58,829 bases of DNA, taken from an uncultured Flavobacteriales bacterium (GTDB taxonomy: Bacteria > Bacteroidota > Bacteroidia > Flavobacteriales > BACL11). Below, piece after piece: positions 1-38,673 of this stretch. Positions within the stretch are counted from its first letter, which is position 1, and every line of letters begins with the position of its first letter. The stretch lies in NCBI GenBank assembly GCA_905478185.1, contig CAJQHO010000007.1, positions 1-58,829 of the forward strand, written 5' to 3'. Both the position numbers and the translations under genes were made by a program. The notes beneath the pieces were generated by a model that was given only the letters and a program-made list of their open reading frames with translations, ran no database searches and had not been told where the DNA came from.

Positions 1-262
1 TTCCATCTACTCCATTTGTTCCATCAACACCAGCAGCACCATCATTACCGTCTACTCCGTTAGTTCCATCTATTCCGTTTGTACCTGCAGGACCTGTTAA
101 TCCAATAGGACCTTGTGCACCTGTTGCACCATCATTTCCATCTACTCCATTTGTTCCATCAACACCAGCAGCACCATCATTACCGTCTACTCCGTTAGTT
201 CCATCTATTCCGTTTGTACCTGCAGGACCTGTTAATCCAATAGGACCTTGTGCACCTGTTGC
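1..262. repeat. 135-bp tandem repeat (45 codons, 15 G-X-Y triplets) in the collagen region
   Basis: Bases 1-127 are identical to 136-262; the repeat may continue past the left edge. Confidence 0.93.
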
Positions 263-724
263 TCCTGTATCTCCTGGTAATCCCTGAATACCTTGTAATC
301 CTTGCGGACCTGGTAACATTGAACCAGAAGTTTCTGCATATAATGCATAAGGAACACTTCGTAATTGTGTAGTACCCATTACAATATAACTTGTTCCTCC
401 TGTAACATCAACAGCTACTTCGATAAAGTAAGTATGGTTTCCCCAGTCTATATTACTCCAAGATCCTGACATTACTCCTCCATCTCCAATAGAAAGATTA
501 ACTAAACCTAACTCATTAGTGGTTGCAGTATGAGCTTCAGTATAGATTGCTGTACCATTAGCTACATCCTCAATAATTGAAATCTCTAAACTTATATTCT
601 GATTAGATAGAACTTGCCAACTAGCATCTCTAATTACCGTCTGGTAAGAAAATGATTGTGGGGCTTGAGCAAATAACATTACACTTAATGTTACAGTTGC
701 TAATAATGTAAATAGTTTTTTCAT
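1..724 (-). CDS. Secreted collagen-like (G-X-Y repeat) protein, truncated by the window edge
   Basis: Not in the ORF track; translated by hand from ATG at 724: MKKLFTLLATVTLSVMLFAQAPQSFSYQTVIRD...WSNIDWG...QLRSVPYALYAETSG, then uninterrupted GPQGLQGIQGLPGDTGATGAQGPIGLTGPAGTNGIDG... to position 1. Confidence 0.9.
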   Translation of the reverse strand, partial: MKKLFTLLATVTLSVMLFAQAPQSFSYQTVIRDASWQVLSNQNISLEISIIEDVANGTAIYTEAHTATTNELGLVNLSIGDGGVMSGSWSNIDWGNHTYFIEVAVDVTGGTSYIVMGTTQLRSVPYALYAETSGSMLPGPQGLQGIQGLPGDTGATGAQGPIGLTGPAGTNGIDGTNGVDGNDGAAGVDGTNGVDGNDGATGAQGPIGLTGPAGTNGIDGTNGVDGNDGAAGVDGTNGVDG

Positions 725-725
725 C

Positions 726-1193
726 TTATTTTGATTTGTTTATTTGATAAACAGATTGCTTATCTGCTATATTTATATGTAAAAAGTAATTTCCTTGTTT
801 TAAAAAGCTAAAGTCAAATTGCTTTTGGTTCTCATCATTTAATTTATCCTTAAGAACTAGCTTTCCATTAATGTCATAAACCAATATATCGGCTTTAACA
901 TTCATTTCAAGCTCTAAAATTAAAAAATTTGTAGTAGGATTAGGATAAACTTTTGTTTTAATATCGATATTCTCAACACTTGTGTTTACTTTTAAAACGC
1001 CTTGATGAAATCCTTGAGTTAAAATAGTAGTGCTATTAGTCTGTGTCTCAACTACAATCTCTCCTAAAGTATAATCCATATTTACTCCTCCATTATTGTA
1101 GGAATTACCAGAACTAGAAATAACTGAAGGTGAGGTGATTTGCCCAAAACCAATCAAAGGCAAGCAAAGTAATATAAGTAGTAGTTTTTTCAT
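726..1193 (-). CDS. Small T9SS type A sorting domain protein
   Basis: Signal peptide MKKLLLILLCLPLIGFG; VISSSG...YTLGE...LTQGFHQ domain; C-terminal VYPNPT...YDINGK...GNYFL sorting domain; stop 1 nt before the collagen gene start. Confidence 0.88.
   Translation of the reverse strand: MKKLLLILLCLPLIGFGQITSPSVISSSGNSYNNGGVNMDYTLGEIVVETQTNSTTILTQGFHQGVLKVNTSVENIDIKTKVYPNPTTNFLILELEMNVKADILVYDINGKLVLKDKLNDENQKQFDFSFLKQGNYFLHINIADKQSVYQINKSK
1170..1193 (-). repeat. Shared 5' block ATGAAAAAACTACTACTTATATTA, exact copy
   Basis: Exact 24-mer also at 1672-1695 and 2242-2265; 1 mismatch at 2906-2929; 2 mismatches at 35497-35520 (+). Confidence 0.92.
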
Positions 1194-1194
1194 T

Positions 1195-1234
1195 GTTAAT
1201 CTATTGTTTATTCTATAACTATTCTTTTCTCTAC
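1195..1234 (-). repeat. Gene-junction motifs: 27-nt 3' tail GTAGAGAAAAGAATAGTTATAGAATAA (1208-1234) and 12-nt spacer CAATAGATTAAC (1195-1206)
   Basis: Both recur exactly on the + strand, at 35785-35811 and 35773-35784. Confidence 0.9.
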
Positions 1235-1695
1235 TGTTCCATCATCATAGATGTAAAAGAGAGGTTGATTAGTGCCTTTTGTTTCTCTACCTAATAGGTC
1301 TGTTACTTTAAGGAGTTCTTTGTTTGTAGTGTGTTCTTTAATTGCAGCAGTTCCATCAATAACAGTAAACTCTCCAATCATTCCATTTGGAATATGAGGA
1401 GTGCAAACATATTCATATAGCCCTGCAACTTGAGGAATATATTGGAAAAAGGTATCTGCAGGTAATTGCCATATTTGATTAAAAGGAATTGCTCCATTAG
1501 GAATATTGTCAGATGTTATGGTATGAGTCATAGTTGGAGGGTCAAGCTGAACCCATTGTACAGTATCTCCTAATTGCACTGTAATATTGTTGAAGGTAGA
1601 AACTGATAGTAACCGTTCCACACCTGTATTTGATGTATATCTCCTTTTACATAAAAAGAAGAAAGAATAAGTAATATAAGTAGTAGTTTTTTCAT
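1208..1695 (-). pseudogene. Plastocyanin/azurin-like blue copper protein with a short sorting-like C-terminal tail; frameshifted near 1590 (pseudogene or sequencing error)
   Basis: ATG at 1695 reads MKKLLLILLILSSFYVKGDIHQIQVWNGYYQFLPS. Adding one A at about 1590 joins it to NNITVQLGDTVQW...HTIT...YEYVCTPHIPNGM (H...C-x2-H-x4-M type 1 Cu ligands) and the tail TDLLGRET...PLFYIYDDGTVEKRIVIE. Confidence 0.75.
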
Positions 1696-1702
1696 CTTAG
1701 TT
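1672..1702 (-). repeat. Shared 5' block plus upstream AACTAAG
   Basis: 31 nt identical to 2242-2272, including 7 non-coding bases. Confidence 0.92.
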
Positions 1703-1713
1703 TATTGTTTAAT

Positions 1714-2265
1714 TTATTCAATAATTATACTGTCAATTATAAGCTTGAAATTTTCATTTTTTTTATTACCAATAAGAAAAGTAATTTGTTCAATATAATC
1801 ATTATTAAAATTTTTAATATCTAATCTTCTGCCACGAAAAGATGCATACATTTCTTTTAATGGAATTATAATTTCTTCCCATTTACCTGATGTTTTGAAT
1901 GGAAGTATATATGAGTAATAATCATTTGTATTAGCTTTAATTCTCAATTGATATTCCTTTTCATCTCCTTTTATCTTTAATTTGATGCTCTTTTTGTCCT
2001 TAATATAGATTCTTTTGCAATTATACCTTACAGAAGCAAAACCACCATTATAAGCTGTAGATATTTTTCCGCCAAAAACTCCATTACTATTTTTGTTTAT
2101 GGTTAAATTACTTTTAGAGACTCCGCCCATCACATCATCATTAACAATCACCCATTCTTGTAAATTATCTTCATTATTAAAATGATAGATAACATTTTGA
2201 GAGAAAAGAAACTTTAAATTAAAAAACATTAAAAAGAAAGTTAATATAAGTAGTAGTTTTTTCAT
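1714..2265 (-). CDS. CIA30 family protein
   Basis: WVIVNDDVMGGVS, NGGFASVR, KGDEKEYQLR and FRGR motifs. Confidence 0.88.
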   Translation of the reverse strand: MKKLLLILTFFLMFFNLKFLFSQNVIYHFNNEDNLQEWVIVNDDVMGGVSKSNLTINKNSNGVFGGKISTAYNGGFASVRYNCKRIYIKDKKSIKLKIKGDEKEYQLRIKANTNDYYSYILPFKTSGKWEEIIIPLKEMYASFRGRRLDIKNFNNDYIEQITFLIGNKKNENFKLIIDSIIIE

Positions 2266-2425: not shown

Positions 2426-2929
2426 CTAATAATAGTAATATGATTCATATATTATGGCAAGTATAAAAGCTAATAATCCAAATGCTAATCCAATAATTGA
2501 TAAAGTTTTTCTGCTATTTTTCTTAAACAATCCAATAACTCCAAGAACAAGCGCTACAGAACTAAAAATCCAAGTATATACTATTGTTGTCAATAATGCT
2601 GTTACACCAAAAACTAATGCTAAAAGTCCATAAATATCAAATCTACCACTTTCTAATTTAGAGTTATTATTACCTTTTATAATATCTTTTGTTCCATCAG
2701 AGTATCTTATCATTATTACGTCTGATTTATTAATAGAAAATAAAGGACCTTCTAAATTGTCACATTTCTTATATTTAATTAAATCTGGCGTGACTTCAAT
2801 AACTTTTGCAGAAATCTCTTTTCCGTCTTTTAAAATAATATTATCACATTCTTCAAAAAATGTATTTATTGGAAAAGATGCAAGCCCAATCATAGGCAAG
2901 CAAAGTAATATAAGTAATAGTTTTTTCAT
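2426..2929 (-). CDS. Hypothetical membrane protein (small soluble domain plus about 3 C-terminal TM helices, DUF4190-like)
   Basis: Signal MKKLLLILLCLPMIGLA; CDNIILKDGKEISAKVIEV...IKYKKC domain; hydrophobic C-terminus. Confidence 0.75.
   Translation of the reverse strand: MKKLLLILLCLPMIGLASFPINTFFEECDNIILKDGKEISAKVIEVTPDLIKYKKCDNLEGPLFSINKSDVIMIRYSDGTKDIIKGNNNSKLESGRFDIYGLLALVFGVTALLTTIVYTWIFSSVALVLGVIGLFKKNSRKTLSIIGLAFGLLAFILAIIYESYYYY
2866..2929 (-). repeat. Extended shared 5' block (64 nt)
   Basis: 59/64 nt identical to 35497-35560 (+); first 44 nt match the start of 726..1193 at 42 positions. Confidence 0.92.
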
Positions 2930-3285
2930 TGTTTATCGCCTTCCCAAGTTCCTGTAAAACCAACTGATGAATTAGTCCAAGTTCCGCTTCCAGAATTACC
3001 GCTAAGTTGTCCAACAAAATTACTCCCAAGTGTGCCAGACCCAGCTGTTGCTGAAAAAGATCCGTTAGATGTTACTGAACCACTTAAATTTTGATTATCT
3101 CCAATAGAATTAGTTGAACTTCCGTTAATATCCCCAGTTGAAGAAATTGTAGCAGCCCAAACTCCAGAATCATCACCTGAATAAGTTCCAGTCCAATTTC
3201 CAGTAAAAATATTATCTTCCTCTTCTTTCTTACAAGCTGAAAATATAATTGATACTGCTAATAATGTGTAAAGTAGTTTTTTCAT
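2926..3285 (-). CDS. Hypothetical lipoprotein, Gly/Ser/Thr-rich beta domain
   Basis: Lipobox IFSAC followed by KKEEED; repeated G-x-W-x-G motifs; ATGA overlap with the next gene. Confidence 0.8.
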   Translation of the reverse strand: MKKLLYTLLAVSIIFSACKKEEEDNIFTGNWTGTYSGDDSGVWAATISSTGDINGSSTNSIGDNQNLSGSVTSNGSFSATAGSGTLGSNFVGQLSGNSGSGTWTNSSVGFTGTWEGDKQ

Positions 3286-32339: not shown

Positions 32340-33320
32340 ATGTCAAACAGAAGAAATTTTATTAAAGGAGGGGTTTTAGGAGCGGTTGGAACAGCTATTT
32401 TTCCTAAATTAATTTCTGCCATAGCACAGAACTCAAATCCTAATTCTGAAGAAGGTCACCCAATGGTTATTTCTACTTGGAAACATGGAATGCCCGCCAA
32501 TGTAGCTGCTATGGAAGTGCTGCAAAGCGGAGGCAAGGCAATTGATGCTGTTGAGGCTGGTGTAAAAATACCAGAAGCTGATCCGGAATCTATGTCGGTT
32601 GGATTAGGAGGATTGCCAGATAGAGATGGAAAAGTAACTCTTGACGCTTGCATTATGGATGAAACAGGAAATTGTGGTTCAGTTAGTTTTTTACAACATA
32701 TAAAACACCCAATTTCTGTTGCCAGAAAAGTAATGGATGAGACACCTCATGTTATGTTATCAGGGGAAGGCGCATTACAATTTGCATTAGAACAAGGTTT
32801 TCCTAAAGAAGATTTATTAACTGAAAAAGCTGAAAAAAGATGGAGAGAATGGTTGAAAGAATCTGAATATAAACCAATAATAAATGTGGAAAACCATGAT
32901 ACTATTGGACTTTTAGCATTGGATAAAAAAGGTGATATTTCTGGGGCTTGCACTACATCAGGTCTTTCTTGGAAAATGCACGGTAGAGTTGGAGATTCGC
33001 CAGTAATTGGTGCAGGGATGTATGTTGATAATGAAGTTGGTGGTTGTTGCGCTACAGGAGTTGGGGAGGCCGTGCTTAAAACTTTAGGTTCTTTTTTAAT
33101 TGTTGAGTTAATGCGACAAGGCGCTAGTCCTCAAGAAGCTTGTGAGGAAGGAATTGCTCGAATTGTAAAAAATCAAAATTATAAGGATATGCAAATTGGC
33201 TATTTGGCCATCAATAAAAAAGGAGAGCATGGTGCTTATGCTGTACATCCTTGGTTTAATTATGCTTTGCATCAAGGAGGTGAAAATCGAATGATAGATT
33301 CCTTGTCTTATTTGAAATAA
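32340..33320 (+). CDS. N4-(beta-N-acetylglucosaminyl)-L-asparaginase (glycosylasparaginase), Tat-exported
   Basis: Tat motif SNRRNFIK; SVG.GGLPDRDG.VTLDACIMD; autoproteolysis site HD/TIG; GRVGDSP. Confidence 0.93.
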   Translation: MSNRRNFIKGGVLGAVGTAIFPKLISAIAQNSNPNSEEGHPMVISTWKHGMPANVAAMEVLQSGGKAIDAVEAGVKIPEADPESMSVGLGGLPDRDGKVTLDACIMDETGNCGSVSFLQHIKHPISVARKVMDETPHVMLSGEGALQFALEQGFPKEDLLTEKAEKRWREWLKESEYKPIINVENHDTIGLLALDKKGDISGACTTSGLSWKMHGRVGDSPVIGAGMYVDNEVGGCCATGVGEAVLKTLGSFLIVELMRQGASPQEACEEGIARIVKNQNYKDMQIGYLAINKKGEHGAYAVHPWFNYALHQGGENRMIDSLSYLK

Positions 33321-35485
33321 TGAAATATTGGCTATATATATTCTGTTTGTTGTTTTCTTGTACTGATCAAAAAGTACAAGAGGTAAATCTTATCCCCAAA
33401 CCTCAAAAATTAGAGATAACTGATGGTGTATTCTCACTAAGTTATAACACAAATTTGATAGTTGACAGTCTATTTTATACTGAGTCAGACTACTTAAAAG
33501 AGATTCTCAATCTTGAATTAAAAGGGAACGGAAATACAATTGAATTATTAAAAAAAGAAGTATTACAAGAAGAAGAATTTTTTCTAAATATTTCAGAAGA
33601 AAAATTAAAAATAGAGGCGTCTACCCCTAAAGGAATAATGAGAGGGATACAAACTTTAAGACAGTTAATCACGACTAAAAAAGGAGTAGTAAAAACAACA
33701 ATTCCTTGCTTAAAAATTCATGATTTTCCAAGATTTTCTTGGAGGGGATTGCTCCTAGATTGTTGCCGTCATTTTATGGACAAAGAATTTGTAATGCGCT
33801 ATATTGATTTGTTGGCTTATCATAAAATGAATGTTTTGCATTGGCACCTTACAGAAGATCAAGGATGGAGAGTTGAAATTGAGAAATACCCAAAACTAAC
33901 TGAAATTGGAGCTTGGCGCACGGAAAAAGATGGTAGTAAATATGGTGGATTTTACACCAAAGAAGACATCAAAGAAATTTTGGCTTATGCAAAAACAAGA
34001 CATGTTACAGTTGTTCCAGAAATAGAATTCCCAGGACATTCGGTTGCTGCTATTGCCTCCTACCCTCATCTTTCTTGTTCAGGTGATAGCATAAATGTAG
34101 GTACTGATTGGGGTGTTTATAAAGATATTTACTGTGCGGGAAACGATACCGTTTTTGTTTTTATGGAAGATGTATTAACGGAGGTTATGGAATTATTCCC
34201 ATCAAAATACATTCATATTGGAGGAGATGAAGCTCCAAAATACAGATGGGAACATTGCAGAAAATGCCAGCAAAGAATTACAGAAGAAGGACTGCATGAT
34301 GCACATGAATTGCAATCCTATTTTATTACAAGAATTGAAAAATTCTTGAACGAAAACGGAAGACAACTTATTGGTTGGGATGAGATATTAGAGGGTGGTT
34401 TAGCTCCCTCAGCAACTGTGCAATCTTGGAGAGGAGAAGAAGGTGGAATTGCTGCAGCCAAAAGTGGACATGACGCTATTATGTCGCCAACTTCCCATTG
34501 TTATTTTGATTATGGACTAGATGCTACTGACCTAAAAGATGTCTATCATTATGAGCCTATTCCTGCAGAGTTAACAGAAGATGAAGCCAAACATATTTTG
34601 GGTGGAGAGTGTAATATGTGGAGCGAAAGAGCCCCGCAAGAATTAATTGATAGCAAAGTATTTCCAAGGATTTTAGCTATGAGTGAAGTGCTATGGAGTT
34701 CCTCCGAAAAAGATTATGATAATTTTTATTCTCGAGTACAAAAGCACTATCCTAAACTGGATGCACTAGGCGTAACTTATGGATTTGAAAGTGTGCCTAT
34801 TACCTCAACAGTTGTTTTTAATGCCGATAGTTTTGCCGTTTCTCTTTTTAAAGGCAGCCCTGATATCCGTTTGGAATACAGCCTTAATAATGGTACTTGG
34901 CAAGACTATACTACTCCTTTTGGCGTAAATTCAACTAGCACTTTAAAGGCCAGAGGATTTAAAAACAAAAAGCCCTACGGAGAGTTTGAGCAGGAATTAA
35001 TTAAACATATTGCTACTGGAAAGAAAGTCAATTATACTATACCTTACAACAAACATTACAAAGGAACAGGTGATAATAATTTGACAGATGGACTTTTGGG
35101 GAGTACAGAGAATTTCAGAGATGGTTATTACCAAGGATTCTCAGGAACTGATATGGAAGTGATTATTGATTTGGGTGAAATAAACACATTCTCAAAAATT
35201 AACACTGCCTTTTTTCAATACTATTTATCTTGGATAGTATTGCCAACTTCTGTGAGTTATGCAATTTCTGATGATGGAAAAAACTTTACCGAAATTGCAA
35301 ACATTACCAATGAAATTCCTCTTATGAAAGAAGGAAAGTTTAAGCATACTTTTAATTTTGAAAAAGAAAATACAAAAGCAAAATACCTAAAAGTAAGTGC
35401 TAAAACAGTTGGAAAATTACCAAAAGAGCACCCTGCTGCTGGCTCAGATGCTTGGATTTTTGTGGATGAAATAATTATAAATTAA
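33320..35485 (+). CDS. GH20 beta-N-acetylhexosaminidase with a C-terminal F5/8-type module, lipoprotein
   Basis: DFPRFSWRG..LD..RHF, HWHLTEDQGWR, HIGGDEA and GWDEI; lipobox LFSC. Confidence 0.95.
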   Translation: MKYWLYIFCLLFSCTDQKVQEVNLIPKPQKLEITDGVFSLSYNTNLIVDSLFYTESDYLKEILNLELKGNGNTIELLKKEVLQEEEFFLNISEEKLKIEASTPKGIMRGIQTLRQLITTKKGVVKTTIPCLKIHDFPRFSWRGLLLDCCRHFMDKEFVMRYIDLLAYHKMNVLHWHLTEDQGWRVEIEKYPKLTEIGAWRTEKDGSKYGGFYTKEDIKEILAYAKTRHVTVVPEIEFPGHSVAAIASYPHLSCSGDSINVGTDWGVYKDIYCAGNDTVFVFMEDVLTEVMELFPSKYIHIGGDEAPKYRWEHCRKCQQRITEEGLHDAHELQSYFITRIEKFLNENGRQLIGWDEILEGGLAPSATVQSWRGEEGGIAAAKSGHDAIMSPTSHCYFDYGLDATDLKDVYHYEPIPAELTEDEAKHILGGECNMWSERAPQELIDSKVFPRILAMSEVLWSSSEKDYDNFYSRVQKHYPKLDALGVTYGFESVPITSTVVFNADSFAVSLFKGSPDIRLEYSLNNGTWQDYTTPFGVNSTSTLKARGFKNKKPYGEFEQELIKHIATGKKVNYTIPYNKHYKGTGDNNLTDGLLGSTENFRDGYYQGFSGTDMEVIIDLGEINTFSKINTAFFQYYLSWIVLPTSVSYAISDDGKNFTEIANITNEIPLMKEGKFKHTFNFEKENTKAKYLKVSAKTVGKLPKEHPAAGSDAWIFVDEIIIN

Positions 35486-35496
35486 AAAAAATAACA

Positions 35497-35769
35497 ATGA
35501 AAAAGTTACTACTTATATTACTTTGCTTGCCTATGATTGGGGTTGCCTCTTTTCCAATAATTACAGATACTAAAAAATGTGAAAGAACAACAGTTCCTTT
35601 AGATTATGATGTTAATCAAAAGACAGATAATGAAAATAGTAAAATAGAAATAATAAAGTCACCTTTAGAAAAAGATGGTTTTTGGAAGGTTATGCGCTGG
35701 TTACGTATAATCTTTATAATCTTGTTGTCCATTATTGTTATAGCATTAGTATTGGCTGATTTAAATTAA
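35497..35769 (+). CDS. Small hypothetical membrane protein carrying the shared 5' block
   Basis: MKKLLLILLCLPMIGVASFPI is nearly identical to the start of 2426..2929; one C-terminal TM helix. Confidence 0.75.
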   Translation: MKKLLLILLCLPMIGVASFPIITDTKKCERTTVPLDYDVNQKTDNENSKIEIIKSPLEKDGFWKVMRWLRIIFIILLSIIVIALVLADLN

Positions 35770-35772
35770 TTT

Positions 35773-35811
35773 CAATAGATTAACGTAGAGAAAAGAATAG
35801 TTATAGAATAA
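35773..35811 (+). repeat. Fused junction motifs CAATAGATTAAC + GTAGAGAAAAGAATAGTTATAGAATAA (possible empty-cassette scar)
   Basis: Exact reverse-complement matches to 1195-1206 and 1208-1234; the 27-mer encodes VEKRIVIE* with no start codon of its own. Confidence 0.88.
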
Positions 35812-38673
35812 ATGAAAAAAATACTCCCTTTTATATTACTGCTTTTTATGGCTTGCCAGAAAGAGCCTAACTCTTTAACAACATATGTAAATCCTTTTAT
35901 TGGTACAGGTGGTCATGGTCATACTTATCCAGGAGCAAGTGCTCCTTTTGGTATGGTACAGCTCAGCCCAGATAGTCGTTTGGAAGGTTGGGATGGTTGT
36001 GGCGGCTATCATTATTCAGATTCTATTATTTATGGTTTTTCGCATACGCACCTTAGTGGAACTGGTGTTTCGGACTATGGCGATATTTTACTAATACCAA
36101 CTACGGGCGAACTGCTTTTAAATAATGGTGCTGCTGGTAATCCTGGATATAGTTCTACATTTTCCCATGAAAATGAAACTGCCACAGCAGGTTTTTATCA
36201 AGTCTTTTTAGAAAATTATAATGTGGATGTTGAACTAACTGCAAGTCAAAGAGCAGGCTTTCATAAATACACTTTCCCTGAAAATGAAGAAGCTCAGGTG
36301 GTACTAGATTTAGAACACAGAGACAGATTGTTGGATTATAAAATTGAATTGGTAGATAGCAATACACTACAAGGTATCCGCTATTCAGACAATTGGGCAA
36401 GAGTGCAAAAAGTGCATTTTTACATGCAATTTTCTAAAAACTTACAAAGTATCACCTTTAATGAAAAGCAATCAGTTGCAGGTATTTCTTTTGGTAAGTT
36501 ACAAAAACCTCTACTGATAAAAGTGGGAATATCAGCAGTAAGTACAGATGGTGCCAAAGCCAATTTACAAGCTGAAATACCACATTGGGATTTTGATAAA
36601 ACAAAAGCAGAAACTACTGATCTTTGGGAAAAGGAACTTAGTAAAATTATAGTGGAAGGAAAATCAGAAGAGCAAAAAGAGATTTTCTATACTGCTTTGT
36701 ATCACTCCTTGCTTAACCCTAATTTATATATAGATGTAGATGGCAATTACAATGGTACTGATTTACAAAAACATCATACTGATGATAAACATTATACTAT
36801 ATTTTCACTTTGGGACACATTTAGAGCGACACATCCACTATTTACCTTGATTCAACAAGATCGAACTAATGAATTTATCCGTACCTTTTTAAGACAATAC
36901 AAAGAAGGAGGTCAATTACCTATTTGGGAATTGGCTGCTAATTATACTGGCTGTATGATTGGTTATCATGCTATACCAGTAATTGCAGATGCCTATATAA
37001 AAGGAATTAGAGATTATGATGCAGATTTAGCTTTAGAAGCTATGGTCCATTCTGCCATGCAAGATGATTTAGGATTAAGTTGGTATAAAGACAATGGATT
37101 TATTGCAGCTTCTGATGAACCAGAATCAGTTTCAAAACATCTAGAATATTCTTATGATGATTGGTGTATTGCACTACTTGCTGACTCTTTAGGAAAAGAA
37201 GAAATTGCAACTACTTTTTATCAGAGAGGTCAGTATTATAAAAATTTATTTGATCCTTCCACTGGATTTTTCAGAGCTAAAAAAAGCCATACTTGGTTTG
37301 CTCCATTTAGGCCTGAGGAAGTAAATTTTAATTATACAGAAGCCAATGCTTGGCAATACTCATTTTTTGTTCCTCAGGATATCAGTGGGCATATAAAAAT
37401 CATGGGTGGAGCAAAAAAATATGAGCAACATTTAGATAATATGTTTAATGCTTCAACTGAAACTTCTGGTAGAGAACAGCCTGATGTTACTGGTCTAATT
37501 GGACAATATGCACACGGAAATGAGCCAAGCCATCATATGGCTTATTTATATAATTATGTAGGGAAGCCACATAAAACACAAAAGATTGTAAGGCAAATTT
37601 TGGATGAACAATATACTCACCTTCCAGATGGATTATCAGGGAATGAGGATTGTGGGCAGATGTCTGCCTGGTATGTCCTGAGTGCAATGGGGTTCTATTC
37701 TGTTACTCCTGGGCTTGATTATTACACCATAGGAACGCCACTATTTGAAAAAGCAACTCTCAATTTAGAAAATGGAAGTGCTTTTACTATTGTAGCCAAT
37801 AATGTTTCTGATGATAACATTTACATCCAATCCGCTACTTTAAATGATAAAATATTTGAGCATAGTTTTATTAAACATTCAGATATTATCAAAGGAGGGA
37901 CCCTATTTTTTGAGATGGGGAGTAGCCCTAGCAGTTGGGCAAGCAAAAGTTTTCCACTATCTTCAATTACAAAAAATGAAATAGTAGCCGTTCCTTACTT
38001 TGAAGCAGAAAGCCAAACATATACCGACAAACTAAGCGTTAAATTAGGATCAGCTGTAGGTGGAGATATTTATTACAGCATTAATGATCAAAATGAAAAA
38101 AAATATGAAAAGCCAATTATTATTACTGCTGATGCTAATATAAGTTGCCGCATTAAAAAAGGAGCAAAATGGAGCAAACAAGTTTCTGCTAATTATTACA
38201 AGACTGACAATACAAAATCTATAAAAATAGAAAGCTTATATGCAAATCAATATGCAGCAGCAGGAGATAAAACACTAATTGACCATTTAAGAGGAGGTGG
38301 GAATTATCGAACTGGGAATTGGCAAGGCTACAGAGAAGATTTAAATGTTACTGTTGATTTAGGAAAAGAAAAAGAAATTTCTACTATTAGCTTAGGCTGT
38401 ATGCAGGATATTAAATCTTGGATTTTCTTTCCTAAAAAAGTAGAGTATTATTCATCTGTTAATGCAGAAGACTTTACCTTTTTAGGAATAATAAACACTA
38501 ATTTTTCGGACAGGTTAGAAGGTAGTTTTATTGATGATTACACTCTAAAACTTCAAAATACTAAAGCACAATATATCAAAGTAAAAGCTACTAATTATGG
38601 TATTTGTCCAGATTGGCATTTAGGGGCAAGAGGTAAAACTTGGCTTTTTGTAGACGAACTAATAATAAAATAA
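35812..38673 (+). CDS. GH92 alpha-mannosidase with a C-terminal F5/8-type module, lipoprotein
   Basis: YVNPFIGTGGHGHTYPGA..PFGMVQLSPD, SLWDTFRA.HP, HGNEPSHH and GNEDCGQMSAWY. Confidence 0.95.
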   Translation: MKKILPFILLLFMACQKEPNSLTTYVNPFIGTGGHGHTYPGASAPFGMVQLSPDSRLEGWDGCGGYHYSDSIIYGFSHTHLSGTGVSDYGDILLIPTTGELLLNNGAAGNPGYSSTFSHENETATAGFYQVFLENYNVDVELTASQRAGFHKYTFPENEEAQVVLDLEHRDRLLDYKIELVDSNTLQGIRYSDNWARVQKVHFYMQFSKNLQSITFNEKQSVAGISFGKLQKPLLIKVGISAVSTDGAKANLQAEIPHWDFDKTKAETTDLWEKELSKIIVEGKSEEQKEIFYTALYHSLLNPNLYIDVDGNYNGTDLQKHHTDDKHYTIFSLWDTFRATHPLFTLIQQDRTNEFIRTFLRQYKEGGQLPIWELAANYTGCMIGYHAIPVIADAYIKGIRDYDADLALEAMVHSAMQDDLGLSWYKDNGFIAASDEPESVSKHLEYSYDDWCIALLADSLGKEEIATTFYQRGQYYKNLFDPSTGFFRAKKSHTWFAPFRPEEVNFNYTEANAWQYSFFVPQDISGHIKIMGGAKKYEQHLDNMFNASTETSGREQPDVTGLIGQYAHGNEPSHHMAYLYNYVGKPHKTQKIVRQILDEQYTHLPDGLSGNEDCGQMSAWYVLSAMGFYSVTPGLDYYTIGTPLFEKATLNLENGSAFTIVANNVSDDNIYIQSATLNDKIFEHSFIKHSDIIKGGTLFFEMGSSPSSWASKSFPLSSITKNEIVAVPYFEAESQTYTDKLSVKLGSAVGGDIYYSINDQNEKKYEKPIIITADANISCRIKKGAKWSKQVSANYYKTDNTKSIKIESLYANQYAAAGDKTLIDHLRGGGNYRTGNWQGYREDLNVTVDLGKEKEISTISLGCMQDIKSWIFFPKKVEYYSSVNAEDFTFLGIINTNFSDRLEGSFIDDYTLKLQNTKAQYIKVKATNYGICPDWHLGARGKTWLFVDELIIK

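What the first reader, a model, noticed from the sequence alone, without database searches (positions are those of the whole stretch)
35773..35811. Empty-cassette scar: pre-start spacer fused directly to an orphan gene end
Seen: CAATAGATTAAC precedes a start codon in the array (1195-1206). Here it is joined to GTAGAGAAAAGAATAGTTATAGAATAA, an exact copy of the last 27 nt of the cupredoxin gene (1208-1234, VEKRIVIE*). In the array the order is tail then spacer; here it is spacer then tail, as expected if the gene body between them was removed. In the intact copies the spacer ends ...TAACA and the tail is preceded by GGAACA, giving an AAC(A) microhomology at the join. An exact 27-nt non-coding match is very unlikely by chance in 59 kb and suggests a recent event or selection on the DNA motif itself.
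Basis: partly seen in the sequence, partly recalled or inferred. Interest (0 to 1): 0.82.

Follow-up and report, generated by a model that had tools for sequence, protein, structure and literature searches.

The report
Scar of a displaced gene cassette
A 39-base leftover between two sugar-degrading enzyme genes marks where a secreted-protein gene was displaced, in a marine bacterium whose secreted-protein genes carry interchangeable, near-identical DNA "heads" and "tails".

Summary
Window 35773-35784 (CAATAGATTAAC) abuts 35785-35811, an exact 27-nt gene end. It is not a copy of the cupredoxin gene in particular. The 27-mer is the consensus 3' end of a ~40-aa C-terminal "tail" domain carried by 32 stretches in this genome, with 4 exact copies. 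The 12-mer belongs to a multi-copy leader placed before a DNA-level-conserved signal-peptide "head".

A same-genus relative (G014) has a full 377-aa LRR gene with this tail between the same GH20 and GH92 genes, and homology to the window begins exactly at the 27-mer. So the 27-mer is the relic of a tail-bearing gene that once sat just upstream of GH92.

In this genome that gene's body is replaced by a 90-aa signal-peptide/membrane gene plus the leader of whatever followed it. The join is blunt. The claimed AAC(A) microhomology does not hold.

The junction is found only in this genome (1 of 68 family genomes) and recurs unchanged in contigs from three other studies. There is no integrase, attC-like fold or evidence of circles.

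The context is the more interesting part. Head-and-tail genes are gained, lost, swapped and scarred at many sites in close relatives.

Verdict: a genuine displacement or deletion scar, interpretation partly supported. The scar itself has modest interest; the cassette-like system behind it has moderate interest.

The parts
35773..35784 (+). Leader 12-mer CAATAGATTAAC. It is part of the multi-copy leader AAAACAATAGATTAACAAT(G or AAACTAAGATG) that normally sits just before a conserved signal-peptide start. Here it has no gene behind it.
   Evidence: 9 exact copies in the genome, 7 of them followed by an ATG within 1-16 nt.
35785..35811 (+). Relic of the last 27 nt (VEKRIVIE + stop) of a tail-bearing gene, now non-coding. 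Its stop codon abuts the GH92 ATG.
   Evidence: Orthologous to the end of the 377-aa LRR gene of G014, where homology with the window starts at 35785.
35497..35769 (+). 90-aa gene: conserved signal-peptide head (MKKLLLILLCLPMIGVASFPI...) and a C-terminal membrane helix. It is the occupant that replaced the body of the resident gene.
   Evidence: Homologues in G004 (73% aa) and G022 (56% aa) lie at other loci. A paralogue lies at 2426-2929.
33320..35485 (+). GH20 beta-hexosaminidase gene, the left syntenic anchor.
   Evidence: PF00728, E 2.9e-115. 81% nt identity to G014, ending at 35486.
35812..38673 (+). GH92 alpha-mannosidase gene, the right syntenic anchor. The relic is its immediate upstream region.
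   Evidence: PF07971, E 2.7e-180. 86% nt identity to G014. No terminator lies between the 90-aa gene and GH92.
1140..1240 (-). Canonical composite junction: tail end, one A, leader, one A, then ATG and signal-peptide head of the next gene. This is the arrangement the scar inverts.
   Evidence: The same composite occurs at C28:7213-7289 (96% over 77 nt) and C25:68963-68914.
1208..1695 (-). Cupredoxin gene with head and tail. In this assembly a 1-nt deletion near 1592 puts the signal peptide out of frame with the cupredoxin domain.
   Evidence: The G002 orthologue has CTACCTTCCAAC where the window has CTACCTTCAAC.
2844..2933 (-). Head of the 167-aa paralogue. It forms a 90-nt, 87% inverted repeat with 35493-35582.
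   Evidence: inverted repeats I1 and I2.

Best explanation
The 39 nt are a recent, lineage-specific scar of gene turnover.

The gene class (shown). In this family of uncultured marine Flavobacteriales, many secreted-protein genes share a DNA-level-conserved head (leader plus signal-peptide start). Many also share a conserved tail of about 120 nt encoding a ~40-aa C-terminal domain that looks like a compact relative of the T9SS type A sorting domain.

The site (shown). A tail-bearing gene once lay immediately upstream of GH92, as the LRR gene still does in G014. In the lineage of this genome its body, from its start to 27 nt before its stop, is gone. In its place are a 90-aa head-bearing gene and the leader of the gene that used to follow that 90-aa gene.

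The mechanism (inferred). The left joint lies in or next to homologous sequence (GH20 end, leader, head). The right joint (leader|tail) is a blunt illegitimate join. It arose either in one step, with homology anchoring one end and an illegitimate join at the other, or in two steps. In the two-step route, a head-to-head homologous insertion placed the 90-aa gene in front of the resident gene, and the resident body was then deleted.

Why 27 nt remain (inferred). The last 27 nt survive because the event is young. Any deletion reaching further would also remove the A-rich, unstructured region directly before the GH92 start.

The scar needs no function of its own.
For: Site history:
- G014 has GH20, then a 377-aa LRR gene ending ...LFYIYDDGTVQKRIIIE, then GH92. 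Window homology stops at 35486 on the left and restarts exactly at 35785 on the right.
- The G014 tail end differs from the relic at 4 of 27 positions, in line with the 86% identity of GH92.
- G022 and G033 (other genera) have GH20 and GH92 3-11 nt apart with nothing between.

Age and reality of the junction:
- The 28-nt junction is found in 1 of 68 family genomes, this one.
- The 30-mer joining the 90-aa gene end to the leader is also found in 1 of 68.
- A 303-nt contig covering 35512-35814 with 0 differences is present in runs of three other studies, X5, X7 and X13.
- Both paths through the 31-nt repeat shared with C51 keep synteny: tail to GH92 in G014, and tail to the 613-aa gene in G002 and L032.

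The tail is a gene-class feature:
- 32 matches in this genome and 18-47 in each of 16 of 16 genus genomes.

Turnover of head-and-tail genes:
- The GNAT|613-aa site holds an LRR gene in G000, the cupredoxin gene in G002 with the same junctions (TAAATT|ATG and GAATAA|ATGAG), another LRR gene in L032, and nothing in G014, G001, G015 and G013.
- A 20-kb stretch of C5 differs by whole genes between G000, G001 and G002. A 756-aa tail gene is relocated in G001, and the match limits equal the ORF limits.

Illegitimate deletions that leave heads or tails occur elsewhere:
- An orphan leader plus 9-codon head at C28:7246-7292.
- A decayed tail at C19.
- An orphan head in G001 left by a 7.1-kb deletion.
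- A tail relic of at least 57 nt right after the 90-aa homologue in G004.

No RNA family matches, and the region folds less well than shuffles (z +1.09).
Against: - No precursor was found, meaning a 90-aa gene followed by leader, ATG and a whole gene. It was sought in 67 other family genomes, 60 relatives and 3 metagenome loci. The order of events is therefore inferred.
- Only one genome of the genus (G014) is informative for the site. G013's contig starts inside GH92.
- It is not shown that the gene lost here was the LRR gene rather than another tail gene. The relic equals the within-genome consensus and the C51:22644 tail exactly.
- A right breakpoint within the last 27 nt of a gene over 1 kb long is improbable for a single random event (about 2-3% if uniform). 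It needs the added assumption of trimming down to a constrained GH92 upstream region.
- A second tail relic after the same 90-aa gene in G004, at another locus, is an unexplained coincidence under purely random deletion.
- All genomes compared are metagenome-assembled. The Logan contigs (k = 31) break at the repeat and bridge the join by only 30 nt on the right.
Confidence: 0.75

Rival explanations
1. The 39 nt are kept by selection as a working DNA element. The leader would supply promoter or translation-initiation signals for GH92. Alternatively, the leader-plus-tail pair would be a landing pad whose two homology arms keep the site able to capture new head-and-tail genes.
For: - Both pieces are exact copies of the consensus.
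- In 18 of 70 tail genes of other species, the next gene's ATG lies 0-4 nt after, or overlaps, the tail's stop. Tail ends therefore often serve as the upstream region of the next gene.
- The region is unstructured.
- No terminator separates the 90-aa gene from GH92.
- Cassette exchange with a breakpoint at the start of the tail domain is seen for the cupredoxin gene.
Against: - The junction occurs in only 1 of 68 family genomes, so there is no conservation to show selection.
- 27 nt is at the lower edge of what homologous recombination needs (recalled, not tested).
- The normal spacing from leader to ATG is 1-16 nt, and here it is 27.
- Exactness is equally explained by youth.
Confidence: 0.12
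2. An integron-like or other site-specific cassette system excised the gene as a circle, leaving an empty cassette whose join is the recombination site.
For: - Cassette-like behaviour with base-precise limits is seen at the GNAT|613-aa site.
- Conserved sequence spans the tail end, the leader and the head.
- Mycoplasma vpma, vsp and vsa loci use recombination sites in a conserved 5' leader (PMC2268961, passages).
Against: - None of the genome's 4 PF00589 tyrosine recombinases is on this contig.
- There is no hairpin-forming site (one search lists no local inverted repeat at the join).
- The join at 35784|35785 is not reproduced at any other scar. C28, C19, G001 and G004 all have different breakpoints.
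- Empty sites carry no footprint (G014...AAAAAATAA|ATGAGG).
- Neither the tail nor the head sequence was found in viral contigs.
Confidence: 0.06
3. Assembly artefact: a chimeric join at the 31-nt repeat (27-mer plus ATGA) shared with C51:22644, or at the head repeat.
For: - The k = 31 contigs of public runs end or start at this repeat and cannot resolve it alone.
- All genomes compared are metagenome bins.
Against: - The leader|tail join itself lies inside a 303-nt contig with 0 differences in three independent studies.
- Swapping the two paths would break synteny on both contigs. GH20..GH92 is conserved in G014, G022 and G033. Tail followed by the 613-aa gene is conserved in G002 and L032.
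- A 31-nt repeat is shorter than ordinary reads (inference).
Confidence: 0.03
4. Ectopic gene conversion copied a tail end plus ATGA (for example from C51:22644) onto the region upstream of GH92. No tail-bearing gene ever lived there in this lineage.
For: 31 of 31 nt identity with C51:22644-22674.
Against: - G014 has a whole tail gene at the orthologous place.
- Conversion needs flanking homology, which is absent on the left (leader) side.
Confidence: 0.03

Closest known systems
Displacement of T6SS effector, Rhs and CDI gene ends with orphan remnants, proposed to arise by homology-facilitated illegitimate recombination. Source: Kirchberger et al. 2017, PMC5361080, passages read. Jackson 2009, de Vries & Wackernagel 2002 and Prudhomme 2002 were seen only in its reference list. 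PMC3240628 was seen only as a search listing.
   Same: - Incoming DNA is anchored by a conserved upstream stretch.
- The other end is joined without homology.
- The 3' end of the displaced resident gene is left downstream of the newcomer.
- Repeated events give arrays and strings of remnants.
   Different: - The genes here are not toxin-immunity modules. They are assorted secreted proteins (LRR, cupredoxin, CIA30-like, small membrane proteins).
- The conserved anchor is the genes' own leader and signal-peptide DNA.
- A second conserved arm (the tail) exists at the 3' end, so most exchanges can be fully homologous.
- The scar is only 27 nt.
Integron gene cassettes
   Same: - Promoterless single-gene units in arrays.
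- Presence, absence and exchange at fixed sites.
   Different: - No integron integrase is near the site.
- There is no attC fold.
- The repeated boundary sequence is coding (signal peptide and C-terminal domain).
- Breakpoints of scars differ from case to case.
Mycoplasma vpma, vsp and vsa variable lipoprotein loci (PMC2268961, passages read)
   Same: Families of surface-protein genes share a highly conserved 5' leader and signal-peptide region that serves as the recombination substrate.
   Different: - Those loci use an adjacent tyrosine recombinase (Xer1, Mbr, HvsR) and invert genes in front of one promoter, with high-frequency phase variation.
- Here no recombinase is linked, the genes are scattered over many loci, and no inversion variants were seen (contigs only).
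T9SS type A C-terminal sorting domain (TIGR04183 / PF18962; de Diego et al. 2016, PMC4804311, passages read)
   Same: - C-terminal position on signal-peptide-bearing proteins in a genome with SprA and GldM.
- Profile-profile alignment places LIKITDvLGRe on the IxIYNiLGxxV strand and YIYDDGTVEKKIIIE on the final YF...KKiI strand.
- The T9SS signal is reported to lie in the last 22 residues.
   Different: - About 40 aa instead of a seven-strand sandwich of about 70-90 aa. It lacks the YPNP strand and the middle strands.
- None of this genome's tail genes appears among the 51 PF18962 matches at E <= 10, while 37 other genes pass the cut-off.
- TIGR04183 touches only 4 of 45 tails, best E 0.044.
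Replacement-type flexible genomic islands of marine bacteria (recalled from memory; no call)
   Same: Alternative gene contents at one site are exchanged by homologous recombination in conserved flanks, including between lineages.
   Different: Here the homology arms are inside the exchanged genes' own ends, and the units are single genes.

Membership tests
Integron gene cassette / empty cassette | Integron-type tyrosine recombinase next to the array | tested here: not met
   PF00589 has 4 matches in the genome (C62, C49, C10, C23) and none on C7.
Integron gene cassette / empty cassette | attC-like imperfect inverted repeat able to fold at the cassette boundary | tested here: not met
   35750-35850 folds at -6.9 kcal/mol against a shuffle mean of -10.1, z +1.09. 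No local inverted repeat at the join appears.
Integron gene cassette / empty cassette | Circular excised intermediates | not testable with these tools
   Only assembled contigs could be laid. They show the canonical tail-CAATAGAT-head order from other loci, which is no evidence of circles.
Gene-displacement scar (homology-facilitated illegitimate recombination / C-terminal displacement) | Homologous anchor on one side of the replaced segment | tested here: met
   The GH20 end is conserved up to 35486. The leader and head DNA at 35485-35582 is 87% identical to the heads at 1145-1205 and 2844-2933 and recurs at about 17 genes.
Gene-displacement scar (homology-facilitated illegitimate recombination / C-terminal displacement) | Non-homologous joint on the other side | tested here: met
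   The join GATTAAC|GTAGAG has 0 nt of strict microhomology with the two intact contexts (direct reading).
Gene-displacement scar (homology-facilitated illegitimate recombination / C-terminal displacement) | 3' remnant of the resident gene orthologous to an intact gene in a relative | tested here: met
   G014 has a 377-aa LRR-tail gene at the site, and homology starts at 35785.
Gene-displacement scar (homology-facilitated illegitimate recombination / C-terminal displacement) | Identified donor or precursor arrangement | tested here: not met
   The 30-mer joining the 90-aa gene end to the leader is found in 1 of 68 family genomes. Homologues in G004, G022, L018 and L019 have other downstream sequence.
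T9SS type A sorting domain (for the tail the relic comes from) | Match to the family model above its cut-off | tested here: not met
   None of the tail genes is among the PF18962 matches at E <= 10. TIGR04183 matches 4 of 45 tails, best E 0.044. Pfam gives no recurrent family.
T9SS type A sorting domain (for the tail the relic comes from) | Remote homology by profile comparison | tested here: inconclusive
   hhalign of 28 tails against 29 type A domains of the same genome: probability 69-72%, P 4e-5, score 24.7. The reversed control scores 12.5 and the best of 20 column shuffles scores 13.7.
T9SS type A sorting domain (for the tail the relic comes from) | Seven-strand beta-sandwich fold | not tested
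A length of about 40 aa makes a full sandwich unlikely (inference).
T9SS type A sorting domain (for the tail the relic comes from) | C-terminal position on signal-peptide proteins in a genome encoding the T9SS | tested here: met
   The tails end the ORFs. SprA (2712 bits) and GldM are present.
Site-specific phase-variation locus (vpma/vsp/vsa-like) | Linked recombinase and inversion variants at conserved 5' sites | tested here: not met
   There is no recombinase on C7. No inversion joints appear among the laid contigs, which cannot show rare variants.

The most novel reading that the evidence does not exclude
Streamlined, uncultured marine Flavobacteriales run a cassette system that needs no recombinase. 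Secreted-protein genes are bounded by a DNA-level-conserved head (leader plus signal-peptide start) and a conserved tail encoding a compact, so far unmodelled T9SS-like sorting domain. These ends act as portable homology arms. They let gene bodies be gained, lost, swapped between loci and passed between lineages. The leader|tail scar is the footprint of one such event that lacked a second arm, and it may remain a usable landing pad.
Probability: 0.45. Interest if true: 0.65.

Novelty: new variant of a known kind. Interest (0 to 1): 0.45.

Why it matters
On its own the scar is ordinary genome decay. Its value is as a dated footprint of how very small marine genomes (1.66 Mb here) renew their surface and secreted proteins.

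The same head and tail DNA flanks unrelated genes. Close relatives carry different genes, or none, at base-identical sites. One gene body (cupredoxin) is 99.2% identical between two genomes whose flanking genes are 93% identical.

If the heads and tails really serve as recombination arms, this would be a simple homologous route to cassette-like plasticity without integrons. It would also explain why the codons of a signal peptide and a sorting domain are frozen at the DNA level.

The tail itself sits on 18-47 genes per genome in this genus and has no Pfam or NCBIfam model. It is a candidate minimal T9SS sorting signal, and that can be tested with a reporter in a tractable Flavobacterium.

Tried and rejected
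- Read-through of the 90-aa ORF into the relic. They are in the same frame, but two stops intervene and only 8 residues of tail would be added. Rejected.
- The 29 nt upstream of the relic as a decayed continuation of the tail. By eye on the alignment, about 10 of 29 positions agree, which is chance level for this composition. Rejected; the exact 12-mer leader match is the better reading.
- My first reading of G004 as a second leader(AACAATGA)|tail fusion. I withdrew it. That stretch may be the decayed ...ACTAATCAACC... part of the tail domain, so G004 shows a tail relic of at least 57 nt, not a leader|tail fusion.
- Short-frame tails in the genus as further fusions. Of 7 fetched, 5 are genes with a frameshift or stop (L110, L111, L113, L114, L116), 1 is cut by a contig end (L112) and 1 is an intact small gene (L115). 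None is a leader|tail fusion.
- tRNA genes beside tails. The conserved hairpin plus GGTGGACCTCTCGGTCC... element after 5 tail genes gave 0 tRNA genes with ARAGORN. It remains unexplained.
- Phage carriage. The tail 28-mer and head 30-mer had 0 exact hits in viral contigs.
- Rfam. The only hit was a chance-level lncRNA match (E 0.52).
- Promoter and terminator scan. 5 promoter-like sites against 3.5 expected, and no terminator before GH92. Not informative for Bacteroidota promoters.
- Metagenome scan with the 90-aa protein. It gave only 3 loci, none with the leader or a tail after the gene.
- Literature. The string FYIYDDGT is in 0 papers. Searches found no description of this tail or of head/tail cassette exchange.
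- RNA run X15. It has patchy contig cover and one joint, 35540 to 35788, with only 24 letters on one side. It most likely comes from another locus or organism and says nothing on transcription of the scar.
Full report
**1. The observation**

Window 35773-35811 reads CAATAGATTAAC followed directly by GTAGAGAAAAGAATAGTTATAGAATAA, and then the ATG of a 953-aa ORF. On the minus strand at 1234-1195 the same two pieces occur in the opposite order. The 27-mer is the end of an ORF (...VEKRIVIE, stop). Then come one A, the 12-mer, one A, and the ATG of the next ORF.

The 27-mer has 2 matches in the window, and 0 of 100 shuffles gave any match. The 12-mer with up to 1 mismatch has 3 matches against a shuffle mean of 0.62.

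Two details need correcting.
- The 27-mer is not private to the cupredoxin gene. In the 1.66-Mb genome (66 contigs; the window is contig C7) it is exact at four places, and the copy at C51:22644 shares 31 nt with the relic. The 12-mer is exact at nine places.
- The intact contexts are GATTAAC|AATG and GGAACA|GTAGAG. The join reads GATTAAC|GTAGAG. A crossover within AACA would have kept the A, so the join has no strict microhomology.

**2. What the two pieces are**

The tail:
- A tblastn with the last 50 residues of the cupredoxin ORF finds 32 stretches at E <= 2e-5, of the type ..LIKITDvLGREtKxxxNqPLFYIYDDGTVEKkIiIE, stop.
- These stretches end ORFs of very different kinds: LRR proteins, cupredoxins and large multidomain proteins.
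- The domain occurs in 16 of 16 genomes of the genus, with 18-47 matches each.
- A scan of one genome per species gave 262 confirmed stretches. The best 80 are nearly all labelled as uncultured marine Flavobacteriales or their families; single records carry other labels (one Thalassomonas, one bacterium TMED6).
- No Pfam or NCBIfam model covers it. TIGR04183 touches 4 of 45 tails, with best E 0.044.
- None of this genome's tail genes is among the 51 PF18962 matches at E <= 10, although 37 other genes pass that model's cut-off.
- A profile of 28 tails aligns with a profile of 29 type A sorting domains of the same genome at 69-72% probability, P about 4e-5, score 24.7. The reversed control scores 12.5 and the best of 20 column shuffles scores 13.7.
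- The genome encodes SprA and GldM.
- I read the tail as a compact relative of the T9SS type A sorting domain. This is an inference; secretion was not tested and the fold could not be predicted.

The leader and head:
- The 12-mer is part of a leader, AAAACAATAGATTAACAAT followed by G or by AAACTAAGATG. It precedes a signal-peptide start that is conserved as DNA (ATGAAAAAACTACTACTTATATTACTTTGC...).
- About 17 genes carry this head.
- Their leucines are written CTA CTA CTT .. TTA CTT, although long ORFs use TTA for 50% and CTA for 10% of leucines. The identity is therefore a DNA-level repeat and not codon bias.
- Heads of this kind gave most of the matches in 47 of 61 related genomes.

**3. The site in relatives**

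The scar lies between a GH20 hexosaminidase gene (33320-35485) and a GH92 mannosidase gene (35812-38673). A 90-aa ORF (35497-35769) with the conserved head and a C-terminal membrane helix lies just upstream.

- In G014 (same genus) the GH20 end matches the window up to 35486, and the next match starts exactly at 35785.
- Between these points G014 has a 377-aa LRR gene with its own head and the tail. Its stop overlaps the GH92 start.
- The last 27 nt of that gene differ from the relic at 4 positions, in line with the 86% identity of GH92.
- In two other genera (G022, G033) GH20 and GH92 are 3-11 nt apart.
- The leader|tail junction, and the joint between the 90-aa gene end and the leader, are each found in 1 of 68 family genomes, this one.

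So the 27-mer is the orthologous remnant of a tail-bearing gene that abutted GH92, and the event is specific to this lineage. The 12-mer cannot be that gene's own leader, because in G014 the gene starts 4 nt after the GH20 stop. It came with the 90-aa gene. The paralogue at 2426-2929 likewise has a leader copy (AAATAGATTAAC) downstream, before the next gene.

**4. Is the assembly right?**

- Fourteen marine metagenome runs hold at least half of the sampled words of 35200-36400.
- In three runs of three other studies, a 303-nt contig covers 35512-35814 with no difference.
- These k = 31 contigs stop at the 31-nt repeat shared with C51, so alone they cannot exclude a swap of the two exits.
- Both assembled exits are syntenic elsewhere, however. 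Tail to GH92 is seen in G014. Tail to the 613-aa gene is seen in G002 and in L032.
- I put a chimera at about 3%.

**5. The wider behaviour of head-and-tail genes**

Site B, between a GNAT gene and a 613-aa gene (C51:21777-22670):
- This genome holds a 297-aa LRR-tail gene there.
- G002 holds the cupredoxin-tail gene there, with the same junctions (TAAATT|ATG and GAATAA|ATGAG).
- L032 holds another LRR gene.
- G014, G001, G015 and G013 hold nothing. In G014 the GNAT stop is followed at once by the ATG.
- G004 shows a 163-nt gap there that I did not read.

The cupredoxin gene:
- Its body differs at 3 of 375 positions between this genome and G002.
- The first 66 nt of the tail domain differ at 11 positions, and the last 48 nt at none.
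- The flanks of the G002 site are 93.3% (1551 nt) and 93.1% (982 nt) identical to C51. The binomial P is 1.3e-8 for so few differences at 6.8% divergence.
- This is the pattern of a recently shared gene body with a breakpoint at the start of the tail. The caveat is that both genomes are metagenome bins.

A 20-kb stretch of C5:
- Whole genes differ between this genome, G001 and G002.
- A 756-aa tail gene sits on another contig in G001, and the match limits equal the ORF limits.

The window's array:
- In G001 its genes are scattered. The CIA30-like gene is on one contig, and the 155-aa gene plus the collagen-like gene are present three times.

Linked machinery:
- None of the genome's four tyrosine recombinase genes is on C7.
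- Head and tail sequences were not found in viral contigs.

**6. Other scars**

- C28:7246-7292 is a leader plus nine head codons ending in TGA, with no gene behind it.
- C19 holds a decayed tail in non-coding sequence, and C24 and C25 hold tails with a frameshift or an in-frame stop.
- G001 has an orphan head left by a 7.1-kb deletion relative to this genome.
- In G004 the homologue of the 90-aa gene lies at a different locus, next to aspS. It is followed at once by a tail relic of at least 57 nt.
- The breakpoints differ in every case, which speaks for illegitimate events and against a fixed recombination site.

**7. Mechanism**

Shown:
- A tail-bearing gene occupies the site in a relative.
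- The body is absent here.
- A different head-bearing gene plus a leader occupies the space.
- The right joint is blunt.
- Head and tail DNA is repeated and is a site of mosaicism.

Inferred: one of two routes.
- (a) One step. Incoming DNA carrying the 90-aa gene and the following leader was anchored by homology at the GH20, leader or head side and joined illegitimately inside the resident tail. This is as proposed for displaced T6SS effectors and Rhs ends (PMC5361080, passages).
- (b) Two steps. A head-to-head homologous insertion put the 90-aa gene in front of the resident gene, which was thereby given the leader. The resident body was then deleted.

I cannot separate the two routes, and no precursor was found. 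A further inference concerns why exactly the last 27 nt remain. They form the unstructured, A-rich region in front of the GH92 start. In 18 of 70 tail genes of other species, the next gene starts 0-4 nt after the stop or overlaps it.

**8. Comparison and novelty**

The scar works like the orphan 3' ends left by gene displacement in Rhs, CDI and T6SS loci. It is not an integron cassette and not a vpma-type inversion system, because defining features were tested and not met (PMC2268961, passages).

The tail resembles, but is not a recognised member of, the T9SS type A domain. That domain is described as a seven-strand sandwich with the signal in the last 22 residues (PMC4804311, passages).

I found no paper with the tail motif or describing such head/tail exchange. 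These searches cover only the held library.

**9. Verdict**

It is not an empty integron-like cassette, not a copy of the cupredoxin end in particular, and not a microhomology join.
- The scar is of modest interest.
- The system it exposes is of moderate interest and deserves a census on complete genomes. That system has conserved head and tail DNA as likely homology arms, and an unmodelled compact sorting-like domain on 18-47 genes per genome.

Noticed in passing
window 1208-1695 (-), near 1592: The cupredoxin gene has a 1-nt deletion (CTACCTTCAAC against CTACCTTCCAAC in the G002 orthologue). This puts its signal peptide out of frame with the copper-binding domain. It is either a fresh pseudogene or a sequencing error.
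   Followed up: partly
window 1211-1333 (-) and about 31 other places in the genome; L022-L101: A ~40-aa C-terminal domain (..LIKITDvLGRE..LFYIYDDGTVEKKIIIE) sits on 18-47 genes per genome in 16 of 16 genus genomes. It has no Pfam or NCBIfam model and only a remote profile likeness to the T9SS type A sorting domain.
   Followed up: partly
window 2844-2933 (-) versus 35493-35582 (+); 1145-1205 (-) versus 35485-35545 (+): The signal-peptide heads form 61-90-nt inverted repeats of 87% identity, 32-34 kb apart. They are possible substrates for a large inversion that would swap gene bodies. No variant was seen, but only contigs could be laid.
   Followed up: no
genome contig C28:7246-7292 (no locus id): Orphan head: a leader plus ATG and eight further signal-peptide codons ending in TGA, with no gene behind it. 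It lies after a 286-aa tail gene and is the mirror image of the scar.
   Followed up: partly
L119 / L121 (G002:C58) versus window 1207-1716 and genome contig C51:20253-23521: The cupredoxin gene body is 99.2% identical (3 of 375 positions differ) between two genomes whose flanking genes are 93% identical. It sits at different loci in the two genomes. This suggests recent transfer of a single gene with a breakpoint at the start of the tail.
   Followed up: yes
genome contigs C16:6127-6200, C24:420-345, C31:3085-3160, C57:25171-25245; L026, L055, L063, L070 and others: After many tail genes comes a conserved hairpin (AAAACCCACTCAATTGAGTGGGTTT) followed by a conserved element of about 40 nt (TGGTGGACCTCTCGGTCC..TTCGAAC). 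Its reverse complement ends in ..GGTCCACCA like a tRNA 3' end, yet ARAGORN finds no tRNA. At C34 the corresponding place looks like the 3' end of tmRNA.
   Followed up: partly
window 1-724 (-) and 726-1193 (-); G001:C2, G001:C6: The collagen-repeat gene has 135-nt repeat copies at 45-nt (15-codon) spacing (family D1). The 155-aa type A CTD gene in front of it forms a pair with it, and that pair is present three times in G001 at 90-91% identity.
   Followed up: no
L008 1787-1878 (G004): The homologue of the 90-aa gene in G004 is also followed at once by a tail relic, at a different locus (next to aspS). Random deletion does not explain this coincidence.
   Followed up: partly
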